Shown here piece after piece: positions 27,130 through 38,700 of a stretch of DNA of 64,000 nt; within the stretch, counting starts at the first letter, position 1, and each line of letters begins with the position of its first letter. Made by a program: the position numbers and the translations under genes. The notes under the pieces were generated by a model. That model saw only the letters and a program-made list of their open reading frames with translations, searched no databases and was not told the origin of the DNA. The DNA comes from a plasmid: sequence record NZ_CP124633.1; one strand, 5' to 3'.

Positions 27130-27612
<483 letters not shown>

Positions 27613-27698: not shown

Positions 27699-29984
27699 TC
27701 ATGCTGCAATGAGTTGTCGTGCCAACGCCATCTCCACCGAATCTCCGTCTTGGTTCAATGAGTCGAGACCTGACTCGGGAACGTCTCCCGACGTGCTCTG
27801 AGCCACAGCGATCTTCTTGGCCATCAGTTGCAAGCAGGTGATCTGCGAGCTGCCGGCGTAGCCGAAGAACACCACCCGCACCGGGTGCCTCTGCCCGATC
27901 CGCCACGACCGCCGCGCGGCCTGCTGCAGGGTGTACACGTTGTATCCCGTCTGCAGGAACGCGATGGTCGGGAAGTCGAGCAAGTCCAGGCCGGTCTTCA
28001 CCAGTTCCGGGTTGGTGATCAGCACATCGATGCCGCGTTCAACCTGGTCGAGGATCCAGTCCTCGCGCCGAGAGGTAACGACCGAAGCACGTAGCACTGC
28101 CACCTTCAGCCCAGCCTGCTCGAGCACTTTCTTCAGCCTGGACGTGGTGTCGCGCGTTCCGCTGTAGACCGTGTAGGCCAGGACCTTGCGGCCCTTCGCT
28201 TTCTCCTCGAGGCAGAGGTCCAACAGCGCCTGTTCCTTTGGCATCAGTTGCTCGTCGCCGAAGATCGCTGGCACGAAGGCCAGTGTGTCCCGGGTTCGCG
28301 GATGCTTGACGATCTCCGGTCGGAAACAGCAGTCCGGCCAAGCCAGCAGCACGTTGAGGACCACGCCCAGGAGCGTGGTATCTCGTCGCGCCAGAGCCTG
28401 GCGGAGCTCCGCTGTCAGCGTGGCCGCCAGGCGCTGATAGGCCGAAGCCTGATCCGGCGCCATGGGCACGTCGACGAGCTCTTCCTGGTAGTCGGGCAGT
28501 ACGTTGCCGCCGATGTCCCTGAGCTTCAGGAACACGGTGAACGGCAATACGAAGCGGTGGATGCCCTTCGGGCCGAAGCCGGGAGCCTTCACCGTGCGTA
28601 CCGAGAGCTTCTTGCCCCGGGCTGTCTTGTGCGAGTCACCATCGCGTTCGGTGTAGATGTCCTTGAGCACGCCGTGGTCGCGCATGAACGACATGGCTGC
28701 TGGAGCCATGCTGCCACGCGCGTTGGGCCGGTAGCCGTCCTCGATCATGCGCTGGGTGAGGATGCGGAACAGGAGGTAGAACAGGTCGTCGGCGTAGCCG
28801 CCCATGAGCGTTCCGGTCAGCAGCACGGTTTTCCGTGCCTTGGCTGCGAGAACGCCCATGGCCTGGCCCTGGGCCGAACTGCTGTTCTTGTACTCATGCC
28901 CCTCATCCACCACCAGCAGGTCGAAGTAGCCATCAGGTAGGTAGCGCTTGATGAACTCGGTCGGTTGGTAGCCTCCTTCGCCGAAGCCGAACTCGATGTT
29001 CGCCATCGATCGCTCCATGCGTTTGGCCTGCCGATCGCTGAAGACGAAGTTGCCCTTGGCGTCCATCAGGTTGATGAACTCCGAGACGTTGTCCACCAAC
29101 ATCGTGGCCAGGAAGTCCTCGCCGAAGTCGTTCAGCAGGCGCTCCGCCCTGACCGGGCCGATGGTTGGAATCCGACACATCGACTTGAGGATCGTTGCGC
29201 GCCGGCTGCCGCCGTCAGGCTTGCCTGGCCGGATCAGCGTCCAGAGCGCCCCACGGCAGGAGGAACAGGTACGTCGACGGTCACCACGCTCGAACTCCTC
29301 CACCGTGACCAGGTTGCCTTCCAGGTCCTCAAGGACCTGGCCGCAATCCGGGCACGCAGCGAGCAATTGACCGCCAGCGGCGCGTTTCCTCCAGCAGGCG
29401 AGTCGCCAGTGGAAACCCATCCGCATCCGCACGCGGCCGAGGATGAAGAACTCCTGGCGCCCGTCGTAGGCGTCGCCCATCTGATCTCGCAGCTTGAGCA
29501 GCTTGAGTAGAGTATCTGGGCCGTTGAGTACCCAGACGCGGGCGCCTGGGATGGTCTCCAGTATCTCGCGGCGCCACTTGTAGACCAGGTGCGGCGGAGA
29601 GACGACCAGGGTCCGGCGATAGCCGGCCGCGTGCATGACCGCTGCGACAGCGATGGCCATCATGGTTTTCCCGGTGCCCATCTCGGCGTTGATGATCCCG
29701 GCCTGCTCGTTACGGTCCAGCAGCAGGGCGGTGATGGCCTGGACGACCTCGGCCTGGGCCGCGAAGGGCTTGCGCTTGAGTCGGTCCATCACCAACTGGC
29801 GGTGAGCGTTGTCGGATCCGGTATAGACCGGGGGGTTGGAGCGATTGAGCGACTCCAGGAGCTCGTCGCCGAACTCGTCGATGAAGTCGGTCAGGTTGAT
29901 GTTCAGGGGGAGGCGGCCAGGGCGGCCGGTTGGGTCAGAGCGTTCATGTGCATCTCCTGCAGGTGAAGGAAGAAAGCAGGGCAT
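27699..29984 (-). CDS. SNF2/DEAD-like superfamily-2 helicase with Zn-ribbon.
   Basis: Motifs AEMGTGKT, DEGHEYKN, and a helicase C-terminal QAARRSWRIGQ. CxxC...CxxC cluster. Confidence 0.85.
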   Translation of the reverse strand: MPCFLPSPAGDAHERSDPTGRPGRLPLNINLTDFIDEFGDELLESLNRSNPPVYTGSDNAHRQLVMDRLKRKPFAAQAEVVQAITALLLDRNEQAGIINAEMGTGKTMMAIAVAAVMHAAGYRRTLVVSPPHLVYKWRREILETIPGARVWVLNGPDTLLKLLKLRDQMGDAYDGRQEFFILGRVRMRMGFHWRLACWRKRAAGGQLLAACPDCGQVLEDLEGNLVTVEEFERGDRRRTCSSCRGALWTLIRPGKPDGGSRRATILKSMCRIPTIGPVRAERLLNDFGEDFLATMLVDNVSEFINLMDAKGNFVFSDRQAKRMERSMANIEFGFGEGGYQPTEFIKRYLPDGYFDLLVVDEGHEYKNSSSAQGQAMGVLAAKARKTVLLTGTLMGGYADDLFYLLFRILTQRMIEDGYRPNARGSMAPAAMSFMRDHGVLKDIYTERDGDSHKTARGKKLSVRTVKAPGFGPKGIHRFVLPFTVFLKLRDIGGNVLPDYQEELVDVPMAPDQASAYQRLAATLTAELRQALARRDTTLLGVVLNVLLAWPDCCFRPEIVKHPRTRDTLAFVPAIFGDEQLMPKEQALLDLCLEEKAKGRKVLAYTVYSGTRDTTSRLKKVLEQAGLKVAVLRASVVTSRREDWILDQVERGIDVLITNPELVKTGLDLLDFPTIAFLQTGYNVYTLQQAARRSWRIGQRHPVRVVFFGYAGSSQITCLQLMAKKIAVAQSTSGDVPESGLDSLNQDGDSVEMALARQLIAA

Positions 29985-30051
29985 GCACGTCCCTTTCGGG
30001 TATCGGCATACCCTGCAGGGTGGAGTGGAAGGAATCGCCGTGGGGGCGAGG

Positions 30052-31497: not shown

Positions 31498-31687
31498 GGG
31501 GCCTCCTTGAGTCTGAGAGGGATGGCTCAGGCTTGCGCCTGAGCATCGGTGGTAAGAATGCTTTCGCGGATCAGCTCACCGAGGGTGGGCTCGAGCACGT
31601 CGACCCGCAGGGCGAGTCGCCAGGCGCAGACGTTGCCGATCGTCCCGGGTAGGGCCGTCAACATCTGGTGCTGGGTGAGGACCTCCA

Positions 31688-32131
31688 TCACCGGCTCGCG
31701 CCAGTGCTGCAGGAGGGGAGCGGACAGGTTTCCATCACCAGCGGCCAGAGCCTCTGGTGTGGATCCTCATCGCGCTGCAGGAGTGCGAAGGCGAGGTGAT
31801 TGCCTCGGTCGGGCGCCGAGGCGCGCCGATCGAACAGCCAAAGATTGAGCAGGCTGCCGAACAACGTGCCGCGGAACTGGCGGGTGGTGCGTTTCTCCAG
31901 GAGATCCTGGTTTGGGAAGACAGGTAAGCGGCGGCCGTCCACGATGATGTGGAAATGGTCGATGCCATTTTCTTCCCGGCCCAGCGTCAGCCTGGCCAGG
32001 AACTCTTGTGTCACGGTGTCGCGGCCCCAGGCCGAAAGAAAGACCAGGTTGCGCTGCTCGTCGCACACGCAGGCGTCGACGTACAGGTCTGGGCACTCTT
32101 CGATCTGGTAGAGCGGGGTGGGACTGGGCAT
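31688..32131 (-). CDS. Hypothetical protein (147 aa); C-terminus uncertain.
   Basis: RBS CCAGGAGGTTCC. An alternative frame opens after about residue 125. Confidence 0.4.
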   Translation of the reverse strand: MPSPTPLYQIEECPDLYVDACVCDEQRNLVFLSAWGRDTVTQEFLARLTLGREENGIDHFHIIVDGRRLPVFPNQDLLEKRTTRQFRGTLFGSLLNLWLFDRRASAPDRGNHLAFALLQRDEDPHQRLWPLVMETCPLPSCSTGASR

Positions 32132-32222
32132 AGGAACCTCCTGGAAGGAGGAGCCACGCCGCCCTCAAGGGGCGGTGAAGCCCCTCGGGGTGTAGTCCAA
32201 CTGGTGCAGGGGAGCGTGGTGG

Positions 32223-32477
32223 CTACCGAACGCTCTTGGTGTGAGGGTCGAACCTGAGCCCATCGGCTTGGTGCAGCGGCCCTTGGCCGATCAGGAAGAC
32301 CTGGCAGAGGTACTGATCGCGTAGCGCGACAGCCGCTTCCGCCTGCTCCAAGGTCAGCGACAGCTCCTCGATGAACAGGTCGATGAGCTCGTCGTCGCCG
32401 GCGACGTCGTTGTTGGACAGTTGATCCTCGAGGTAGGCGAGGGTTTCCTGGGTGAGGTTGGTGAACAGTGGGTTCAT
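32223..32477 (-). CDS. Small acidic hypothetical protein (84 aa).
   Basis: RBS CAGGAGCACACC before the ATG. Confidence 0.5.
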   Translation of the reverse strand: MNPLFTNLTQETLAYLEDQLSNNDVAGDDELIDLFIEELSLTLEQAEAAVALRDQYLCQVFLIGQGPLHQADGLRFDPHTKSVR

Positions 32478-32544
32478 GGTGTGCTCCTGGTGGTAGACGA
32501 GGAGCGCCCTTGAGGGAGCCCCTCAAGGGAAGTGGTTGGTGCGG

Positions 32545-32907
32545 TCAGGCTTGGTGTTCTTGCGTCAGACGGTCTCGCCACTCCTGGTTGGTCTCATCGT
32601 GAGCCAGATCCAGGAACTCCAGCGGACAGCCGTAGTAGAACGGGCCTGCTTTCTCCGGAATGGTCTTGTAGCCCCATTGCCCGGCCGAGCAGTCCAGCAA
32701 GTGCAGCTCGATCATGGTGATCGAGTGACCGGCCGGCTTGCCGAAATAGAATCCGGCAAGGTGGAAGGTTCGTTTTACGACAGTCCAAAGTTCATTGCCG
32801 GAGACTGCGTGTGCCAGCACCTCGGTGCTGCCTGCGAAGGTACTGGTTGGGGCCAGCAGCTCACGCAGCAGGTCTTCCTTCGTCTGATGTGAGAAAAGCC
32901 ATCCCAT
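32545..32907 (-). CDS. Hypothetical protein (120 aa).
   Basis: RBS CAGGAGCACACC before the ATG. Confidence 0.5.
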   Translation of the reverse strand: MGWLFSHQTKEDLLRELLAPTSTFAGSTEVLAHAVSGNELWTVVKRTFHLAGFYFGKPAGHSITMIELHLLDCSAGQWGYKTIPEKAGPFYYGCPLEFLDLAHDETNQEWRDRLTQEHQA

Positions 32908-33009
32908 AGGTGTGCTCCTGTGGTTGGCCAGGTCTCCCTGACGGGAGAACCCGGCAGGGGTGGGTAGGGTGTTGCTTCAGCGTGTTGCGCGCTCAAGGCG
33001 CTGGAGGAG

Positions 33010-33801: not shown

Positions 33802-33856
33802 GGCGTGACCTGCGAAAAGGATGATCCCGCCGAAGCGGGATCGTGGTGAGGGAGAA

Positions 33857-34207
33857 CTACTCGGTATCCGGGTTGCCCTGGAGGCTTTCTTCCTGCAGCT
33901 CGATGCGCAGGTAGGAAGGCTCATCGGACGGCTCGACTATCGAGAGGACCAGCAGCGCGAGCGCGCGGTCCTGCCCCTCTTCCTCCTTGTGGTACAGGTG
34001 GAATTGGATGTGCTTCGCGGTCGGCTGGAGCGAAAGCTCCTGCCAGGCGGTTTGAACGACACTGGCCAGCCGGGTGCCCATCTCGTCGACCCTGGCAGGG
34101 TTGGCGAGATAGACCAGGCGCAGCCAGGCCGCGTTGGTGAGAACGATCGGGAGTTTGAGGTACGCAGCAGTGTGACCTGCGCTGGAGTGGTTGTTGAGAG
34201 AGGTCAT
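33857..34207 (-). CDS. Hypothetical protein (116 aa).
   Basis: GGAG RBS. Confidence 0.5.
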   Translation of the reverse strand: MTSLNNHSSAGHTAAYLKLPIVLTNAAWLRLVYLANPARVDEMGTRLASVVQTAWQELSLQPTAKHIQFHLYHKEEEGQDRALALLVLSIVEPSDEPSYLRIELQEESLQGNPDTE

Positions 34208-34442
34208 GAGAGGTCTCCGAATACGCAGGCCTCTCCCGCGGGGATGAGGTCCCCGCGTGGGTGGGTAGGATGCACTCCATCACTTGCGTGATGCGACCGC
34301 GCTGCCGAGTGCTGTGGCGGTCTTGGGTGGGTTAGCGCTTGCGCGCCGGAGCCTTAAACCCTGGCTCCTTGGGAGGCGCTGTCAACGACAGCGAGCCAAT
34401 TCGAATTCGGGGGCTGGCGGGATTTCCCGCCGGCCGGATTGC

Positions 34443-35150
34443 TCAATCGTCATAAAGCGGCAGGCCCTTGAGCGTGGGCGCGAATGGATCAAGTACCAGG
34501 AGCCGGATGTCTGCTTGTCCCGCGAGGTGAAGCAGATCGACCAGGTGTTCGTCGAGGCCGAAGTCAAGCTGTTCTTGTCGAAGAGCGGCTGCGGTCATCT
34601 CCAGGATCTCCAGACACTCATCCGTCCAAGGGGTGTTGTGCAAGCGAAAGCCCACGGCACCGTGCTCGTTACACCAGAAGAGCGATACCAACACCGAGGG
34701 CAAGCGGATTGGCATCTTGGTCGAGAACCTTTCGTAGAGGCTATTCCACGCCCTGATGGGTAGATGTGTTTTTCTGATCTCCCAGCAGCGGTTATAACCG
34801 CCGCCGAACGAAAGGTATCGAACGACACTCTCGGCTTCGGTCAGTGAGTATTGATCTCCGATAAGCTTTTTTCTGCCGTCCTGCTCACCGTAGATGCTGT
34901 AAAGTACGTTTCTCACTATTCCTTGGTGAGGGCATTTTTCAACTCTTTCATCGTCTAAGTCTTGGGTTACCACGGCGAAATCGCCATTGAAGTAGCACTG
35001 CTCGCACTGAAAATATTCGTCTGGGAGGTGCTGCTGGGTTTCATGCAGTGCGCGGTAGCACGGTAGATTGTCGCCTTCGTCAGTGATCTGCAGGTTTCGC
35101 TCGATGCGGAAACTCTCATAGCCGCGAATAAACGGATTGAGTTGAGTCAT
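34443..35150 (-). CDS. Hypothetical protein (235 aa), lower GC.
   Basis: RBS CCGGAGATACCCC. Multiple Cys and His residues. Confidence 0.5.
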   Translation of the reverse strand: MTQLNPFIRGYESFRIERNLQITDEGDNLPCYRALHETQQHLPDEYFQCEQCYFNGDFAVVTQDLDDERVEKCPHQGIVRNVLYSIYGEQDGRKKLIGDQYSLTEAESVVRYLSFGGGYNRCWEIRKTHLPIRAWNSLYERFSTKMPIRLPSVLVSLFWCNEHGAVGFRLHNTPWTDECLEILEMTAAALRQEQLDFGLDEHLVDLLHLAGQADIRLLVLDPFAPTLKGLPLYDD

Positions 35151-35250
35151 GGGGTATCTCCGGTTGCCGGGAAGCCCATGCCCTTGGAGGCTATGGACCT
35201 CCAGGTGAGTAGGGGCGCCGAAGCGCCCAGGTGATGTCGAGTTGTTGTAG

Positions 35251-35541
35251 TTAACGCGATAGGTGTTCTTCTTTACGCCGAGCCTTCTGGTATCGCTCTA
35301 CCAGGCCATAGTATTGAAGTACCGGTGATGTGCTCGAGTCGCAACCATGCTCACAGTCGGCCTGCGCCAAAGCTTCGATTGCATCTTGAATTACATAGAG
35401 CTCGATACTGAGTCCTGCATCGCCAAACTCATCAACCAAGCCTTTGCACAGAATGTACTCGAACTTGCTTTGTGCGGCTTGTACTCCGATGTTGAGTAGA
35501 GCTGGGAGCCTTTCTGGGTATGTGTTCATGGTGAGTTCCAA
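35251..35541 (-). CDS. Hypothetical protein (96 aa).
   Basis: ORF preceded by leader-element copy D. Confidence 0.4.
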   Translation of the reverse strand: MELTMNTYPERLPALLNIGVQAAQSKFEYILCKGLVDEFGDAGLSIELYVIQDAIEALAQADCEHGCDSSTSPVLQYYGLVERYQKARRKEEHLSR

Positions 35542-35633
35542 TTCGTAATCAAATCGGAGAGGTCACCTCCCAACAGGGGTGATGACCCCGTCTGGGTTGA
35601 ATTAGAAGATGAACATGGGCAAAAGGGTAAAGC

Positions 35634-35831
35634 TTAATATTCCCGTTGCGTCCAAGTACCGTTGTCTAATGCCTGTTGAGCAAGATCGCGGGAGGGGTAA
35701 TATTCAACCGACTCGCGCGAGGCTGGTCCTTCTTCATCAAGGGTGCCGATATAGAAGCCGGCGTTGGACATAAGAACCTGCAGCGGCAGTTCGAGACGAA
35801 GATGGGCGAGTGCCCGCTTTCCGTATTGCAT
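35634..35831 (-). CDS. Small hypothetical protein (65 aa).
   Basis: Start MQYGKRAL at 35829-35831 with RBS AAAGGAGAATCACC. Preceded by leader copy E. Confidence 0.5.
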   Translation of the reverse strand: MQYGKRALAHLRLELPLQVLMSNAGFYIGTLDEEGPASRESVEYYPSRDLAQQALDNGTWTQREY

Positions 35832-35904
35832 GGTGATTCTCCTTTCGGTAGGAAACACCAGTCCCAAGGGGACTGAGGTCCCCTAAATGGGAAATGTTTG
35901 GCGG

Positions 35905-36063
35905 TTAGGCCAGGGCAGATACCTGGGCATTGTTGCTGGCTAGGAACAGCCAGGCGAAGTTGCAGAAATGCCTGCTGAGCAGCAACTCGTCCTCGATGTC
36001 AGAGAGGCAAACTTCCTCTACTTCCGGCAGGGCGGGCAGATCTACGATTTGGATATTGCTCAT
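35905..36063 (-). CDS. Small acidic protein (52 aa).
   Basis: Start MSNIQIVDL with RBS CTGGAGATCATC. Preceded by leader copy C. Confidence 0.4.
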   Translation of the reverse strand: MSNIQIVDLPALPEVEEVCLSDIEDELLLSRHFCNFAWLFLASNNAQVSALA

Positions 36064-36200
36064 GATGATCTCCAGATAATGGAGAACACCACGCCCTGGG
36101 GGAGATGGTGCCCCCCGGATGGGTATGCGATGAAGAGTGGCGCATAGCGTAGGTAGTGAAAGGCCCTCGGGATGAGGGCCGGTATTCAATCAAGCCGTGC

Positions 36201-36680
36201 TCAAGCAGCGGCTTGTTCAGCAGGGGCTGCGGGTTCACCTTGCGGTTCGCCTTGGCCTTGCTGGGCTTTTTCAGCTTCTTCCTTCGCATCGTAGACGGTG
36301 GTGCCATCTACTTTGATCCAGGAGATGAAGAGCAGCCGGCCTTTGAGACTTGCGTCGGGCCTGCCTTGTTTCTCGCCTTTCTGGTGGATGAAGGGATCCG
36401 CCCAGATATCGCCGATACGGAAGGAAATCAGAACCTTCTTCTTGGCCTCGACTGCTTCCTTGCAACGGCGGACAAGCTTTTCAGCCTGGGCGCCGACCAC
36501 TTTGCAGTCGATGTAGGAGTATTCCACGCTGTCTGCCGCGCCATGGAGGGCTGCGACGGTTACGGCGAGGAACGGTTCACCTCGGCGGATCGGTACTTCG
36601 CGGATGCGATTGAGGTAGCCGATACCGGTGGTGTGCAGGTCGAAATATTTGGCTTCTTGGGCTTGGGTGTTGTTGCTCAT
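36201..36680 (-). CDS. STY4534/DUF3577-like ICE protein (159 aa).
   Basis: Start MSNNTQAQEAKYFDLHTTGIGYLNRIREV at 36678-36680 with a GGAG RBS. Lys/Glu-rich C-terminus. Preceded by leader copy A. Confidence 0.5.
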   Translation of the reverse strand: MSNNTQAQEAKYFDLHTTGIGYLNRIREVPIRRGEPFLAVTVAALHGAADSVEYSYIDCKVVGAQAEKLVRRCKEAVEAKKKVLISFRIGDIWADPFIHQKGEKQGRPDASLKGRLLFISWIKVDGTTVYDAKEEAEKAQQGQGEPQGEPAAPAEQAAA

Positions 36681-36967
36681 GATGGTTCTCCAGTTTCGTA
36701 AGCGAAAGCGGAGAAACACCTTGCCCGTCAGGGAAAAGTATTCCCCGCATGGGTCGGTATTGGGAGGTAAATCTGAGGGAGAGGGCTTCCATCAACCTGT
36801 GGTTGATTGATCGCGCTACCGGAAGCTGGTGCGATCTTGGGTTCGATCTACACGGAAGTCCGTGTCGTAGTCTTTCAGATCATGACTACTGGGGGAGGGT
36901 TGCCGACAACGTCAGCAGCTCACGGGGTAAAGGATGGGCAGGGGAAAAATGAATGTCAATACCCTTG

Positions 36968-36998
36968 AAATGAAAAAAGCGCCCAGTGTTGGGCGCTT
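36968..36998 (-). terminator. Rho-independent terminator after the two tiny TM genes.
   Basis: Minus-strand stem GCGCCCA / TGGGCGC with loop ACAC, followed by TTTTTTCATTTC. Confidence 0.75.
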
Positions 36999-37004
36999 TC
37001 ATGG

Positions 37005-37139
37005 TCAATGATGACGGGGAAGAATCCGATGTTTTTGGCACCAGGTCTTGACTTGAGGCCAACTGAACCAGAGGGCTATGCCGGAGCAGATAACCACCAG
37101 GCTGGTCATGATGATCATGCCGAACTCGGTCTGGGACAT
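37005..37139 (-). CDS. Tiny membrane protein (44 aa).
   Basis: RBS GGAGGAGGAG immediately upstream. One TM helix. Below the ORF-track length cutoff. Confidence 0.35.
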   Translation of the reverse strand: MSQTEFGMIIMTSLVVICSGIALWFSWPQVKTWCQKHRILPRHH

Positions 37140-37140
37140 T

Positions 37141-37317
37141 TCACTCCTCCTCCTCGGTGAGAGCGATACCTATGAGCCAGATTACCATACCCATGACGAA
37201 AGCATATGCCGTCAGCAAGCGGTGCTCGCTGAGGAAGATGCCCACCAGGCTCGCCGCAACGGCAGTGGTACCGATTTTTCGTAGATCGTCTGCGAATGCA
37301 GCACGCTTCGATTTCAT
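37141..37317 (-). CDS. Tiny membrane protein (58 aa).
   Basis: RBS GAGGAAAACC. One TM helix and a poly-Glu tail. Confidence 0.35.
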   Translation of the reverse strand: MKSKRAAFADDLRKIGTTAVAASLVGIFLSEHRLLTAYAFVMGMVIWLIGIALTEEEE

Positions 37318-37391
37318 GGTTTTCCTCGATGAATGCCGGAAAACCGTCCCCGCGGGAAGGTTTCCCGGCAGGGGTTGGTGAGAGGTACGGA

Positions 37392-37781
37392 TCAGCAGGT
37401 CAGCGGATCAACCGGTGCGATCAGTTGATCGAGGGAGCCCAGCTTGAGCTCCTTCCTGACCGGTGTTTTGGCCTTGGGTGTCGCCTTGGCCGGTTTGGAT
37501 TTGCGCGCGCGCTTGGGCTTTTGCACTTCGCGCGTGTTGGCCAGATACCAGTCATTGAGGTTGACTTTCTTCAACCGGACGATCGCCGGGACGTCGCTGA
37601 TGTGTTCCAGCTCTTTGGCGGTCGGGCCAGCAAGCATGGCGGGCTCGATACGCTGGACACTCGACGCAACCGGTGCTTGTGCTTGCACTACGACCGGAGG
37701 GCGACTGAGCGCTCTGCGGAACTCACGCACAACACTGCCGAGGGCAAAGCCGATTTCGAAGCTGGTGGATTGCTTGGACAT
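37392..37781 (-). CDS. Hypothetical basic protein (129 aa).
   Basis: RBS GCAGGAGAAACACC, which lies inside leader copy B. Confidence 0.5.
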   Translation of the reverse strand: MSKQSTSFEIGFALGSVVREFRRALSRPPVVVQAQAPVASSVQRIEPAMLAGPTAKELEHISDVPAIVRLKKVNLNDWYLANTREVQKPKRARKSKPAKATPKAKTPVRKELKLGSLDQLIAPVDPLTC

Positions 37782-38700
37782 GGTGTTTCTCCTGCAGGTT
37801 GAGGGTGCGGAGAAAACACTGGCCCTGGCGGGGAAGTGGATTCCCCGCTGGGTTGCGGAAGGGAGCTTCTATCGACCGAGGCCGACCGACCGTGCTACCA
37901 GAAGCTATACGGTCTTGGGTTGGATCAACACGCTGGGCTGTGCTGCAGCACTTCGGATCCGAGCTGCATGGGGCATGTCGCTGACAACGTCAGCAGATCA
38001 CGCGCTCATCATCGAAGCGGGGGGCGAAAGTGTCAAGGTCAAGCAGGAGGGGGAGCGGATGCAGGATGCAGCGGGCGGAGAGCGAGGGCGGAAGAGCGCG
38101 GCTGGTAGAAACCCTGTCAAAGGTTTCCCCAGCCGTGTCTGGAAGGGGAGTCAAGTGAGCCACCTGTGGTTGAATCGTCGATCCCTGGGCATTGATCGTC
38201 TCGATCCCATCACCCGGCCATTATCGTGGCTTGGCCAGCAAACAGTAGGCACGCATCCGCGTACAAAGGGAGCCCTGCGTATCACCGGCGGGCCACCGGC
38301 AGGGAGAAGGATCCCGATGGGTAGCCTGATGGTCCTGGAGCAGGAGCATCAGGCTACCCATGGAGAGGGAAAAGGAGGGGCCGTAACACCAGTACGACCC
38401 TTAAATCGAGGAAACACCGAACCTCTTGAGAACCCTATGTGCCTTTAAACTCGCTCGACACGAGTTGACGGCTGCATGACAAGCAAAAGAACAGGGAGAC
38501 ACAGGGAGAATTCTCAACCAGATCCGCACGCCCCACCCGGTGTTGTAGCGTGCTTACGGTTTGGCGATGAGGCGAACCTGCATCACCAGGGCGCTACTGA
38601 TGACCGTCAGTAGCCAGCGGGGTGAAATCAAAGTTGATGGCATTATGTGTTCAGAAGGCCGGTTTATCAAGCAGCGCCGGGGTTTACTGGCTTCTGGAGG

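What the first reader, a model, noticed from the sequence alone, without database searches (positions are those of the whole stretch)
35552..38150. Family of conserved structured leader elements upstream of at least five small ICE genes
Six or more copies of a ~50-nt element lie immediately 5' of minus-strand genes: 35251..35541, 35634..35831, 35905..36063, 36201..36680 and 37392..37781, plus one orphan copy at ~38103. On the mRNA strand each copy has a GC hairpin (GGGGA..TCCCC) followed by GGUGUUUCUCC, and 8-25 nt later an SD of the form GGAGAAnCACC before AUG. The GGUGUUUCUCC segment is complementary to that SD: in copy B, GUGUUUUCUCC pairs with GGAGAAACAC. So the element can sequester the ribosome-binding site. 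This looks like a shared post-transcriptional control device or protein-binding site for a co-regulated gene set.
Basis: seen in the sequence. Interest (0 to 1): 0.62.

Follow-up and report, generated by a model that had tools for sequence, protein, structure and literature searches.

The report
Switch-like RBS-masking leaders of ICE genes
Twelve consecutive genes of a PAPI-1/pKLC102-type conjugative element each start with the same small folded mRNA leader, which hides the ribosome-binding site and can refold to expose it; the leader recurs in related elements of many proteobacteria and I found no published description.

Summary
A covariance model built only from orthologues of one copy finds 12 copies in the window. 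All are on the minus strand between 29945 and 37857, and each ends at a start codon. None lies elsewhere in the 64 kb. The 'orphan' at about 38103 is a lone hairpin, not a copy.

Each leader has four features:
- a C-rich, G-poor tract ending in (A)CCCA(C)CC;
- hairpin HP1 (GGGGA..UCCCC), clamped by a CCC:GGG helix;
- hairpin HP2, in which a pyrimidine-rich arm pairs with the Shine-Dalgarno sequence and the spacer up to the AUG;
- a further complementarity between the HP1 5' arm plus loop and the anti-SD arm, which gives an alternative fold that frees the SD.

All three pairings (1:2, 1:3, 3:4) are specific to each copy and covary; control pairings are not.

The family occurs in ICEs and plasmids of Pseudomonas, Enterobacter, Ralstonia, Burkholderia, Vibrio, Salmonella, Klebsiella, Comamonas and Shewanella. 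It precedes at least 27 protein families and usually follows a radC (or STAXI) Rfam motif. It is absent from Rfam.

Best reading: a cis-acting translational leader that is off by default, with a built-in anti-anti-SD. The trigger is unknown. RNA thermometer, attenuator, attC and ssDNA readings are disfavoured.

The parts
37779..37857 (-). Leader F, 5' of the 129-aa gene 37392-37781; follows radC copy 37865-38012
   Evidence: R1 hit of 52.6 bits, E 5e-12. Folds as HP1 plus an SD hairpin, z = -3.7. SD-opening cost 8.8 kcal/mol.
37315..37378 (-).
   Evidence: R1 hit of 27.5 bits, E 2e-5. GGUUUUCC pairs with GGAAAACC. The MFE is the alternative (open) fold; SD-opening cost 0.8 kcal/mol.
36678..36757 (-). 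Leader D, 5' of the DUF3577 gene 36201-36680. Segments: 0 = CCC 36751-36753; 1 = GCGGGGAA 36741-36748; 2 = UUUCCC 36731-36736; 2' = GGG 36724-36726; 3 (anti-SD arm) 36704-36720; 4 (SD arm) 36681-36697; AUG 36678-36680
   Evidence: R1 hit of 75.9 bits. z = -4.1. Conserved upstream of DUF3577 in 79 of the 80 fetched loci; the other is a 479-bp contig without upstream sequence. SD-opening cost 5.7 kcal/mol.
36061..36127 (-). Leader C, 5' of the 52-aa gene 35905-36063
   Evidence: R1 hit of 33.4 bits, E 7e-7. z = -3.1. Its 1:3 helix is 12 bp (GGGGGGCACCAU:GUGGUGUUCUCC).
35829..35895 (-). Leader B, 5' of the 65-aa gene 35634-35831
   Evidence: R1 hit of 21.3 bits, E 1e-3. Both folds are close in energy for the short construct. 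SD-opening cost 6.5 kcal/mol.
35527..35600 (-). Leader A, 5' of the 92-aa gene 35251-35529
   Evidence: R1 hit of 31.9 bits, E 2e-6. SD-opening cost 7.6 kcal/mol.
35148..35209 (-). Leader I, a divergent copy 5' of the DUF5983 gene 34443-35150
   Evidence: R1 hit of 17.7 bits, E 0.01. HP1 is GGAGG..CCUCC and the SD hairpin is GGGCUUCC:GGAGAUACCC. Pfam DUF5983.
34205..34265 (-). Leader H, 5' of the 116-aa gene 33857-34207; follows radC copy 34272-34409
   Evidence: R1 hit of 22.1 bits, E 6e-4. z = -4.2. Its anti-SD arm GAGAGG pairs with CCUCUC, a compensatory variant.
32905..32964 (-). Leader J, a weak divergent copy 5' of the 120-aa gene 32545-32907
   Evidence: R1 hit of 12.6 bits, E 0.22. Same architecture by eye. 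SD-opening cost 4.0 kcal/mol. Cognate 1:3 partner ranks first of 12.
32475..32533 (-). Leader K, a weak divergent copy 5' of the 84-aa gene 32223-32477
   Evidence: R1 hit of 13.2 bits, E 0.16. HP1 has 10 bp; CUCCU pairs with AGGAG. SD-opening cost 9.3 kcal/mol.
32129..32194 (-). Leader L, 5' of gene 31688-32131
   Evidence: R1 hit of 18.4 bits, E 6e-3. SD-opening cost 11.9 kcal/mol.
29945..30024 (-). Leader M, 5' of the SNF2/DEAD helicase gene. Its ATG (29947) is the helicase start in pKLC102; here it is frameshifted to a 14-codon ORF
   Evidence: R1 hit of 18.9 bits, E 4.5e-3. The MFE is the alternative (open) fold. Comparison with pKLC102. Pfam SNF2/ResIII/Helicase_C.
37865..38012 (-). radC RNA motif (RF01754), copy 1, immediately 5' of leader F
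   Evidence: Rfam, 76.9 bits (gathering score 40). A sigma-70-like TTGACA-17-GATGAT lies at 38036-38008 just upstream.
36785..36934 (-). radC RNA motif, copy 2, 27 nt 5' of leader D
   Evidence: Rfam, 96.9 bits. Preceded by a terminator-like hairpin at 36975-37000.
34272..34409 (-). radC RNA motif, copy 3, 6 nt 5' of leader H
   Evidence: Rfam, 81.8 bits.
38100..38134 (-). It is not a full leader
   Evidence: Folds as one hairpin, z = -3.6. No R1 hit at E<=10. Found only in the closest relatives L001, pUM505 and pKLC102.

Best explanation
These are cis-acting mRNA leaders, about 60-80 nt long, that control translation initiation of the gene cluster lying downstream of the pil operon in PAPI-1/pKLC102/ICEclc/SPI-7-type (MPF_G) conjugative elements. 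This cluster runs radC/STAXI, DUF3577, DUF3275, methylase, helicase; the window's closest relatives pUM505 and pKLC102 are typed MOBH.

Segments, in mRNA order:
- a C-rich, G-poor tract ending in CCC(A) (segment 0);
- GCGGGGAA plus loop (segment 1);
- UUCCCC (segment 2);
- GGG (segment 2');
- a pyrimidine-rich anti-SD arm (segment 3);
- the SD GGAGA and the spacer up to the AUG (segment 4).

State A pairs 0:2', 1:2 and 3:4, so the ribosome-binding site is buried. It is the predicted ground state in 10 of the 12 copies. State B pairs 1:3 around a small 2:2' hairpin and leaves the SD single-stranded. Segment 1 therefore acts as a built-in anti-anti-SD.

Shown here: the pairings, their conservation and their copy-specific co-variation.

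Inferred: translation of these genes is off or low by default. The C-rich tract could also let Rho terminate untranslated message. Expression would be released when something shifts A towards B, such as a factor that occupies segment 2/2' or HP1, or one that holds the SD open. The trigger is not identified.
For: - Anchoring. All 12 window copies, and 139 of 140 hits in 47 other ICE loci, lie on the gene strand and end at a start codon. Of 163 complete downstream ORFs, 162 are at least 30 aa.
- SD pairing. The SD is paired in the MFE of 149 of 151 leaders. The opening cost is 4-12 kcal/mol in 10 of 12 window copies, against a median of 3.2 for 29 other genes of the element (p = 0.008).
- Covariation of state A. 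On 133 distinct leaders, 91% of cells are paired against 44-68% for slid controls. There are 127 double-change cells against 30.6 +/- 4.4 in shuffles, with 0 of 500 shuffles reaching the observed value.
- The alternative helix 1:3 in alignments. It is 85% paired against 49-66% for slid controls on the model-fitted alignment. On an unfitted MAFFT alignment of DUF3577 leaders it is 93% against 57-64%. Pairs G-C/A-U (columns 15-56) and A-U/C-G (columns 22-49) covary, although these positions are unpaired or mismatched in state A.
- Copy specificity in the window. Cognate against non-cognate duplex energies among the 12 copies are: 1:2, -18.0 against -13.9; 1:3, -16.0 against -9.5; 3:4, -14.3 against -9.7 kcal/mol. 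For 1:3 the cognate partner ranks first in 8 of 12 and third or better in all 12, with no permutation out of 20,000 reaching the observed mean (nominal p < 5e-5). The controls 2:4 and 1:4 show no specificity.
- Replication. In 130 leaders from other ICEs, grouped into 18 downstream-gene clusters, the cognate advantage is -3.7 (1:2), -3.5 (1:3) and -3.2 (3:4) kcal/mol (p from 1e-5 to 7e-5). The controls are not significant.
- Prefix folding. Without the SD arm, all 12 window leaders fold as state B.
- Strand. G-U/U-G cells outnumber A-C/C-A cells 149 to 52 on the sense strand, which favours RNA over a duplex-DNA site or the complementary strand.
- The 5' flank. The 40 nt before HP1 are 43% C and 15% G. 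C minus G is 6 to 15 per 40 nt, against a regional mean of 2.45 +/- 4.3.
Against: - There are no expression, probing or reporter data, so function is inferred from structure and conservation.
- SD occlusion is only moderately above the high-GC background.
- Copies E and M are predicted to be open.
- State B is the prefix MFE in only 84 of 149 leaders overall. It is missing in the Salmonella SGI4 and Shewanella DUF3577 leaders and in two of the three Burkholderia glumae leaders examined, so the switch may not be universal.
- Covariation counts are inflated by shared ancestry. The A-U and C-G double changes come largely from one Pseudomonas lineage.
- Alignment A3 was fitted to the model, which biases it towards the model's structure.
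- State A is favoured by 4-12 kcal/mol at equilibrium, and no trigger for flipping is known.
- Direct-path barrier estimates are crude upper bounds.
Confidence: 0.6

Rival explanations
1. Constitutive tuner, insulator or stabiliser. The leader is never switched. It gives every shuffled-in gene the same self-contained ribosome-binding context with a set (low) initiation rate. HP1 protects the 5' or intercistronic RNA from RNases. The 1:3 complementarity only softens the SD hairpin thermodynamically.
For: The same module precedes at least 27 unrelated protein families. Opening costs span a graded range of 0.2-12 kcal/mol among copies. No trigger, ligand pocket or leader peptide is evident. State B is absent from about 44% of leaders.
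Against: The 1:3 complementarity is copy-specific and as strong as the two canonical hairpins. That is hard to explain if the alternative fold is never populated, because state A is 4-12 kcal/mol more stable.
Confidence: 0.22
2. Protein operator. HP1 and/or the CCCACCC tract is the binding site of an ICE-encoded or host RNA-binding protein. This protein would repress or activate the whole gene set. One model is the SSB-like DUF3577 protein acting as T4 gp32 or RegA does, with repression relieved while the protein is titrated by ssDNA.
For: Sequence, not only pairing, is conserved in CCCACCC and GCGGGGAA. DUF3577 is predicted to have an SSB-type OB fold: pLDDT 80, and nearly all of the 50 best PDB matches are SSBs, with TM-score normalised to the target 0.45-0.65 for most. 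This reading is compatible with the two-state leader and could supply its trigger.
Against: No binding data exist. No recognised RNA-binding domain was found in the ten cluster proteins scanned against Pfam, NCBIfam and PHROGs or in the four compared with PDB sequences. Sequence conservation may simply reflect common descent of the copies.
Confidence: 0.12
3. Single-stranded DNA element of the transferred strand, such as a priming or ssi site, an attC-like recombination site, or a duplex protein-binding palindrome, rather than an RNA.
For: The neighbours are radC and STAXI motifs, for which an ssDNA role has been discussed (STAXI in PMC2864571). The cluster encodes an SSB-like protein, a methylase and, in Burkholderia, antirestriction proteins.
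Against: Every copy is anchored to an SD and an AUG. G-U exceeds A-C about threefold on the sense strand. The attC core GTTRRRY occurs in 0 of 133 leaders. Only weak hits appear on the opposite strand.
Confidence: 0.04
4. RNA thermometer or transcription attenuator.
For: A two-hairpin layout with a U-rich anti-SD resembles fourU elements. Some DUF3577 leaders have a U-rich run after the 1:3 helix.
Against: The SD-opening cost changes by less than 2.5 kcal/mol between 30 and 42 C and stays at 3.5-11 kcal/mol at 42 C. The U-run is not conserved among paralogues. No conserved leader peptide exists: only 26 of 133 leaders have any upstream ATG.
Confidence: 0.02

Closest known systems
Riboswitch-type expression platforms and the rpoS leader (anti-SD hairpin opened by an anti-anti-SD strand)
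   Same: The SD is sequestered by an upstream complementary arm. A third segment can capture that arm and free the SD. The helices are mutually exclusive.
   Different: No aptamer, ligand or trans sRNA has been identified. The anti-anti-SD is in cis and is itself locked in a hairpin. The element is repeated before a dozen unrelated genes of one mobile element.
Lambda cIII mRNA alternative structures (two conformations, one exposing the RBS; from my own knowledge of Altuvia et al. 1989)
   Same: An early gene of a mobile element whose translation rate is set by an equilibrium between an occluded and an open mRNA fold.
   Different: In cIII the switch region lies partly within the coding sequence, it is a single gene, and RNase III and temperature shift the equilibrium. 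Here the fold is wholly 5' of the AUG, is insensitive to temperature in prediction and is multi-copy.
erm/cat translational attenuation and trp-type attenuators
   Same: A four-segment topology in which a middle alternative helix excludes both flanking hairpins. The last hairpin hides the SD.
   Different: The alternative is 1:3 (looping out segment 2), not 2:3. There is no conserved leader peptide to position a stalled ribosome.
fourU / ROSE RNA thermometers
   Same: A two-hairpin 5' UTR in which the second hairpin pairs the SD with a U-rich strand containing mismatches.
   Different: The hairpins are far too stable and their stability barely depends on temperature. The hosts include soil and plant pseudomonads.
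radC (RF01754) and STAXI (RF01728) Rfam motifs
   Same: Same loci and same strand. A radC or STAXI motif lies directly upstream of many leaders. In the 14 loci, 25 of 31 radC hits are followed by a leader within 40 nt.
   Different: The leader is a separate, shorter element outside both models. It also occurs alone before downstream genes. It is absent from Rfam 15.
Frpo/ssi single-strand promoters in leading regions of F-like plasmids
   Same: Repeated structured non-coding elements preceding same-strand establishment or anti-defence genes of a conjugative element (PMC11541004).
   Different: Frpo is a long DNA hairpin that acts as a promoter. The leader is short, carries no -35/-10 match and is tied to the RBS. 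That this cluster is the ICE's leading region was not established here.

Membership tests
Cis anti-SD translational leader | An upstream segment in the same UTR is complementary to the SD or start region and pairs with it in the predicted fold | tested here: met
   The SD is paired in the MFE of 149 of 151 leaders. The opening cost is 4-12 kcal/mol in 10 of 12 window copies.
Cis anti-SD translational leader | The pairing is maintained by compensatory substitutions | tested here: met
   91% paired against 44-68% for slid controls; 127 double-change cells against 30.6 in shuffles. Cognate-specific 3:4 energies.
Cis anti-SD translational leader | Occlusion lowers translation in vivo | not testable with these tools
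   Needs reporter fusions or ribosome profiling.
Two-state riboregulator (anti-anti-SD platform) | A conserved alternative helix that is mutually exclusive with the SD helix | tested here: met
   The 1:3 helix is 85-93% paired against 49-66% for controls. Cognate -16.0 against non-cognate -9.5 kcal/mol, replicated in other ICEs. The prefix folds as state B in 12 of 12 window copies but in only 84 of 149 overall.
Two-state riboregulator (anti-anti-SD platform) | A defined trigger (ligand, protein, sRNA, ribosome) that shifts the equilibrium | not testable with these tools
   None identified. No Rfam aptamer match at E<=10 in 34800-38600, the stretch that holds leaders A-F and I. Leaders H and J-M were covered only by the gathering-threshold scan of the whole window, which also found nothing over them.
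radC RNA (RF01754) | Match to the Rfam covariance model over the element | tested here: not met
   The radC hits end at 37865, 36785 and 34272, which is 6-27 nt upstream of leaders F, D and H. The other nine leaders have no radC.
fourU/ROSE RNA thermometer | Marginal stability, so that the SD helix melts between about 30 and 42 C | tested here: not met
   The opening cost at 42 C is still 3.5-11 kcal/mol and changes by less than 2.5 kcal/mol from 30 C.
erm/cat-type translational attenuator | A conserved leader-peptide ORF overlapping the first segments | tested here: not met
   Only 26 of 133 distinct leaders have any ATG in the 5' 60%. The CCCAUGCGG of copy D is CUCG or CACG in most orthologues.
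Intrinsic terminator / transcription attenuator | A GC-rich hairpin immediately followed by a U-tract, conserved across copies | tested here: not met
   The terminator scan flags only incidental sub-hairpins in copies A and B. True terminator-like sites lie elsewhere, at 36975-37000 and 33823-33842.
Integron attC-like ssDNA recombination site | The R' core GTTRRRY, and folding of the bottom strand | tested here: not met
   GTTRRRY occurs in 0 of 133 leaders. G-U exceeds A-C 149 to 52 on the sense strand.
Frpo-like ssDNA promoter | A long hairpin carrying -35 and -10 hexamers | tested here: not met
   No promoter-like match lies inside any leader. The one good match (38036-38008) lies upstream of radC.
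REP-type dispersed extragenic palindromes | Genome-wide intergenic distribution with no fixed relation to start codons | tested here: not met
   Within the 64 kb all hits with E<=0.3 lie in one 8-kb cluster, on one strand, each ending at an AUG.

The most novel reading that the evidence does not exclude
The leader is a genuine regulated two-state riboregulator that gates translation of the whole ICE establishment gene set. Rho polarity through the C-rich tract may add to this gating. An as-yet unknown signal of the transfer or ssDNA phase would flip it, for example titration of the SSB-like DUF3577 protein by incoming ssDNA, or a host factor acting on HP1. Together with radC or STAXI it would form a composite 5' UTR. 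That would give a first functional context to two Rfam motifs for which I found no assigned function since their 2010 description.
Probability: 0.2. Interest if true: 0.8.

Novelty: new variant of a known kind. Interest (0 to 1): 0.64.

Why it matters
PAPI-1/pKLC102/ICEclc/SPI-7-type elements move virulence, resistance and catabolic genes among proteobacteria. Work on their control that I found or recall deals with transcription: the TprA/NdpA2/MvaT triad of PAPI-1 (PMC8565334), and the BisDC cascade of ICEclc (from my own knowledge).

A conserved RNA module that masks the ribosome-binding site of about a dozen consecutive genes points to a post-transcriptional layer. I found no description of such a layer in Rfam or in the searchable literature. 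The genes include an SSB-like protein, a methylase and a helicase, and antirestriction genes in relatives.

The finding has three practical uses:
- The module is a compact, mutable target (segments 1-4) for reporter tests.
- It links physically to the radC and STAXI motifs, for which I found no assigned function.
- It could serve as a sequence marker for this gene cluster in genomes and metagenomes.

Tried and rejected
- Rfam 15, at gathering scores and at E<=10, has no family over the leaders. It reports only radC nearby and spurious miRNA- or snoRNA-like hits.
- RNAalifold on the mixed orthologue alignment predicted only HP1. One Pseudomonas lineage has a weakened SD hairpin, so I specified the structure by hand.
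- The RNA thermometer reading is rejected on temperature scans.
- The leader-peptide attenuation and attC readings are rejected by motif counts.
- A terminator role for the 1:3 hairpin is rejected because the U-run is not conserved among paralogues.
- The 'orphan' is rejected as a family member.
- Barrier heights from direct-path search (13-27 kcal/mol) are crude upper bounds, and I do not use them for kinetic claims.
- I did not establish that this cluster is the leading region. The ten large proteins I scanned with Pfam do not include the relaxase or oriT.
- Literature searches on radC, STAXI, DUF3577, leading regions, PAPI-1 transcriptomes and ICEclc found no description of these leaders.
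- Pfam, NCBIfam and PHROGs scans of ten cluster proteins, and PDB-sequence searches of four of them, revealed no RNA-binding candidate.

Full report
**Context**

All genes in the window run on the minus strand. The DUF3577 gene of the window (36201-36680) is 100% identical at protein level over its aligned residues 1-131 to that of P. aeruginosa plasmid pUM505 and 98.5% to that of pKLC102. Both plasmids show the gene order seen in the window and are PAPI-1-like conjugative elements typed MOBH / MPF_G.

The finding lies just downstream of the type IVb pilus operon (pilV, pilM). It sits in a run of small genes that includes:
- DUF3577, named 'STY4534 family ICE replication protein' in NCBIfam;
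- DUF5983 and DUF3275;
- a DUF6094 methyltransferase;
- an SNF2/DEAD helicase.

The same gene order recurs in Ralstonia, Enterobacter and Comamonas records. In a Burkholderia glumae plasmid the cluster continues into antirestriction genes.

Yes. Reading the mRNA strand shows the described layout before the ATGs at 35529, 35831, 36063, 36680 and 37781. RNAfold gives a 5' hairpin plus an SD-containing hairpin. Folding z-scores against dinucleotide shuffles run from -2.3 to -4.2.

I fetched 80 loci encoding DUF3577 relatives, mostly from different Pseudomonas species. The leader is conserved upstream of DUF3577 in 79 of them; the other is a 479-bp contig without upstream sequence. That gives 67 distinct sequences.

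Covariance model R1 was built from those orthologues plus the window's own DUF3577 leader. I ran it over the whole window with filters off.

- In total there are 12 copies, between 29945 and 37857.
- All are on the minus strand and each ends exactly at a start codon.
- No hit with E<=0.3 lies anywhere else in the 64 kb.
- Twelve of the 15 genes in that 8-kb cluster carry the leader. The exceptions are the DUF3275 gene, the methylase and a 44-codon ORF overlapping the stop of the previous gene.

The 'orphan' near 38103 is a single hairpin at 38100-38134. It has no SD or AUG, is not hit by the model, and is conserved only in the closest relatives.

**Distribution**

In 47 Pseudomonas-type loci R1 finds 140 matches at E<0.01. 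Of these, 139 are on the gene strand, and 37 loci hold 2-7 copies within 10 kb.

With filters off, the model also finds leaders in:
- Enterobacter ludwigii (50 bits);
- Ralstonia solanacearum (46 bits);
- Burkholderia glumae (39 bits);
- Vibrio pectenicida (33 bits);
- Salmonella SGI4 (31 bits);
- Klebsiella pneumoniae (27 bits);
- Comamonas aquatica (27 bits);
- Shewanella baltica (20 bits).

The downstream ORFs fall into at least 27 unrelated protein clusters, and 162 of 163 complete ORFs are at least 30 aa. The leader is therefore a generic 5' module of this gene cluster, not the UTR of one gene.

**Relation to known RNA families**

Rfam 15 has no family covering the leaders, even at E<=10. 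It does find three radC motifs (RF01754) in the window. Each ends 6-27 nt upstream of a leader (F, D, H).

- In the 14 loci scanned, 25 of 31 radC hits are followed by a leader within 40 nt. The radC hits in the further loci show the same adjacency.
- In Salmonella SGI4 the same position is occupied by a STAXI motif (RF01728).
- Both motifs were described in 2010 (PMC2864571), and I found no function assigned to either.
- A sigma-70-like TTGACA-17-GATGAT sits just upstream of the radC copy before gene F. Terminator-like hairpins at 36975-37000 and 33823-33842 delimit the units.

The picture is of short transcription units of the form promoter, radC, leader, gene. Leader-only junctions precede the downstream genes of each unit.

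**Anatomy**

Upstream of the GGGGA..UCCCC hairpin (segments 1:2) is a conserved (A)CCCA(C)CC. Its CCC (segment 0) pairs with a GGG (segment 2') just after the hairpin.

The 40 nt before HP1 are 43% C and 15% G. C minus G is 6-15 per 40 nt, against a regional mean of 2.45 +/- 4.3.

The SD hairpin (3:4) is up to 17 bp, with conserved mismatches. It runs from the anti-SD arm through the SD and the spacer up to the AUG.

**Conservation of pairing**

On the 133 distinct sequences aligned to the model:
- 91% of cells form standard pairs, against 44-68% when partners are slid by 1-3 columns;
- 16 of 21 pairs have double changes;
- there are 127 double-change cells against 30.6 +/- 4.4 in shuffles.

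On the MAFFT alignment of DUF3577 leaders alone the support is more modest. There, 80% of cells are paired against 46-64%, and 10 pairs have double changes. One lineage has a weakened SD hairpin.

G-U/U-G cells outnumber A-C/C-A cells 149 to 52. This points to folding of the sense strand, that is, of RNA.

**A second, mutually exclusive fold**

RNAfold returns a different fold for copies A, B and E. The 5' arm and loop of HP1 pair with the anti-SD arm (1:3), a small CCC-N3-4-GGG hairpin (2:2') forms inside, and the SD is left free. I tested whether this is accidental, in four ways.

(i) Duplex energies between segments of the 12 window copies, cognate against non-cognate:

| Pairing | Cognate (kcal/mol) | Non-cognate (kcal/mol) |
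|---|---|---|
| 1:2 | -18.0 | -13.9 |
| 1:3 | -16.0 | -9.5 |
| 3:4 | -14.3 | -9.7 |
| 2:4 (control) | -6.4 | -6.4 |
| 1:4 (control) | -8.3 | -8.1 |

For 1:3 the cognate partner ranks first in 8 of 12 copies and third or better in all 12. No permutation out of 20,000 reached the observed mean, a nominal p below 5e-5.

(ii) The same test on 130 leaders from other ICEs, grouped into 18 downstream-gene clusters, gives cognate advantages of -3.7 (1:2), -3.5 (1:3) and -3.2 (3:4) kcal/mol. P values run from 1e-5 to 7e-5, and neither control shows an advantage.

(iii) As an explicit helix, 1:3 is 85% paired on the fitted alignment, against 49-66% for slid controls. On the unfitted DUF3577 alignment it is 93% against 57-64%.
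- Two of its pairs covary, G-C/A-U and A-U/C-G. These positions are unpaired or mismatched in the first fold.
- In that lineage the U-to-G change breaks an SD-hairpin pair but restores 1:3.
- The caveat is that these double changes stem largely from one lineage.

(iv) When the SD arm is left off, all 12 window leaders fold as the alternative, by 0.4-12 kcal/mol.

Across all 149 leaders with a paired SD, this rearrangement is the prefix MFE in only 84. It is missing in the Salmonella SGI4 and Shewanella DUF3577 leaders and in two of the three Burkholderia glumae leaders examined. The alternative fold is therefore frequent, and universal in this element, but not universal in the family.

**Energetics**

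With 17 nt of coding sequence after the AUG included, forcing the four SD bases open costs 4-12 kcal/mol in 10 copies. It costs 0.8 kcal/mol in E and 0.2 in M, whose ground state is the open fold.

For 29 other genes of the element, with starts chosen by SD, the median is 3.2 (IQR 2.3-5.2). The difference is significant but moderate (p = 0.008). Under an equilibrium model, a 3 kcal/mol difference implies initiation about 100-fold lower than a typical gene of the element. That figure is an inference.

The cost hardly changes between 20 and 50 C, which argues against a thermometer.

**What it most likely is**

The element is a cis-acting translational leader that buries the ribosome-binding site by default. 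It carries its own anti-anti-SD (segment 1), which is normally locked in HP1.

This gives an attenuator-like three-helix logic: 1:2 and 3:4 against 1:3. Anything that frees segment 1 from segment 2 would release the SD. Conversely, opening the SD hairpin frees segment 3 to capture segment 1.

The C-rich, G-poor tract upstream resembles a Rho-loading or ribosome-standby region. It could couple untranslated leaders to polarity, but that is conjecture.

I could not identify the trigger:
- There is no conserved leader peptide; only 26 of 133 leaders have any upstream ATG.
- There is no aptamer match.
- No RNA-binding domain was recognised in the ten cluster proteins scanned against Pfam, NCBIfam and PHROGs or in the four compared with PDB sequences.

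One candidate is worth testing. DUF3577 is predicted (pLDDT 80) to have an SSB-type OB fold. Some single-strand-binding proteins repress translation of their own or other early messages, T4 gp32 being an example from my own knowledge.

**Rivals**

- A constitutive tuner, insulator or stabiliser fits the graded opening costs and the many downstream gene families. It leaves the copy-specific 1:3 complementarity unexplained.
- ssDNA-level readings (priming site, attC-like site, duplex operator) are disfavoured by the strict SD/AUG anchoring, by the G-U asymmetry and by the absence of GTTRRRY.
- Terminator and attenuator readings fail because no U-run is conserved.

**Novelty**

SD-masking leaders and anti-anti-SD logic are well known. 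What is new here is:
- a family conserved across beta- and gammaproteobacterial ICEs and plasmids;
- up to a dozen copies per element, before unrelated genes;
- a position adjacent to radC or STAXI motifs;
- three co-evolving pairings.

I found it neither in Rfam nor in the searchable literature. That library omits most subscription journals, so a prior description cannot be excluded.

Noticed in passing
window 37865-38012, 36785-36934, 34272-34409 (minus strand); also L002, L082, L083, L088 and others: There are three radC RNA motifs (RF01754), each directly followed by a leader. In the 14 loci, 25 of 31 radC hits have a leader within 40 nt. In Salmonella SGI4 a STAXI motif (RF01728) takes the same place. 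radC or STAXI plus the leader looks like one composite 5' UTR.
   Followed up: partly
window 36201-36680 (minus strand): The DUF3577 / 'STY4534 family ICE replication protein' is predicted (AlphaFold2, pLDDT 80) to have an SSB-type OB fold. Nearly all of the 50 best PDB matches by Foldseek are bacterial or mitochondrial SSBs.
   Followed up: partly
window about 29910 (minus strand), in helicase ORF 27699-29984: There is a one-base deletion relative to pKLC102 (GCCGCCTTCCCCC becomes GCCGCCTCCCCC). It puts the leader's ATG (29947) out of frame with the SNF2/DEAD helicase and leaves a 14-codon ORF. This is either a pseudogene or a sequencing error.
   Followed up: partly
window 31525-32131 (minus strand): The gene after leader L is 147 aa here, but about 200 aa in pKLC102 and in its orthologue cluster. 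The reading frame seems to continue in another frame to about 31525, which would be a second possible frameshift.
   Followed up: no
window 38312-38366: A palindrome with 26-nt arms (88% complementary, 3-nt spacer) lies about 335 nt downstream of the pilM stop. It gives spurious sub-threshold miRNA-family matches on both strands and is probably a bidirectional terminator.
   Followed up: no
window 38008-38036, 36975-37000, 33823-33842 (minus strand): A sigma-70-like TTGACA-17-GATGAT sits just upstream of the first radC copy. Two canonical terminator-like hairpins follow the 44-codon ORF and gene H. Together they suggest three short transcription units within the cluster.
   Followed up: no
40 nt 5' of each leader's HP1 (e.g. 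36749-36788, 37370-37409): Each leader is preceded by a strongly C-rich, G-poor tract (43% C, 15% G). This resembles a Rho-utilisation site or a ribosome-standby site.
   Followed up: partly
window 27316-27576 (minus strand): A short ORF here has an IS3-family transposase-like sequence (..[22 protein letters not shown]..), directly downstream of the helicase gene. This may mark the edge of the conserved cluster. It was judged by eye only.
   Followed up: no
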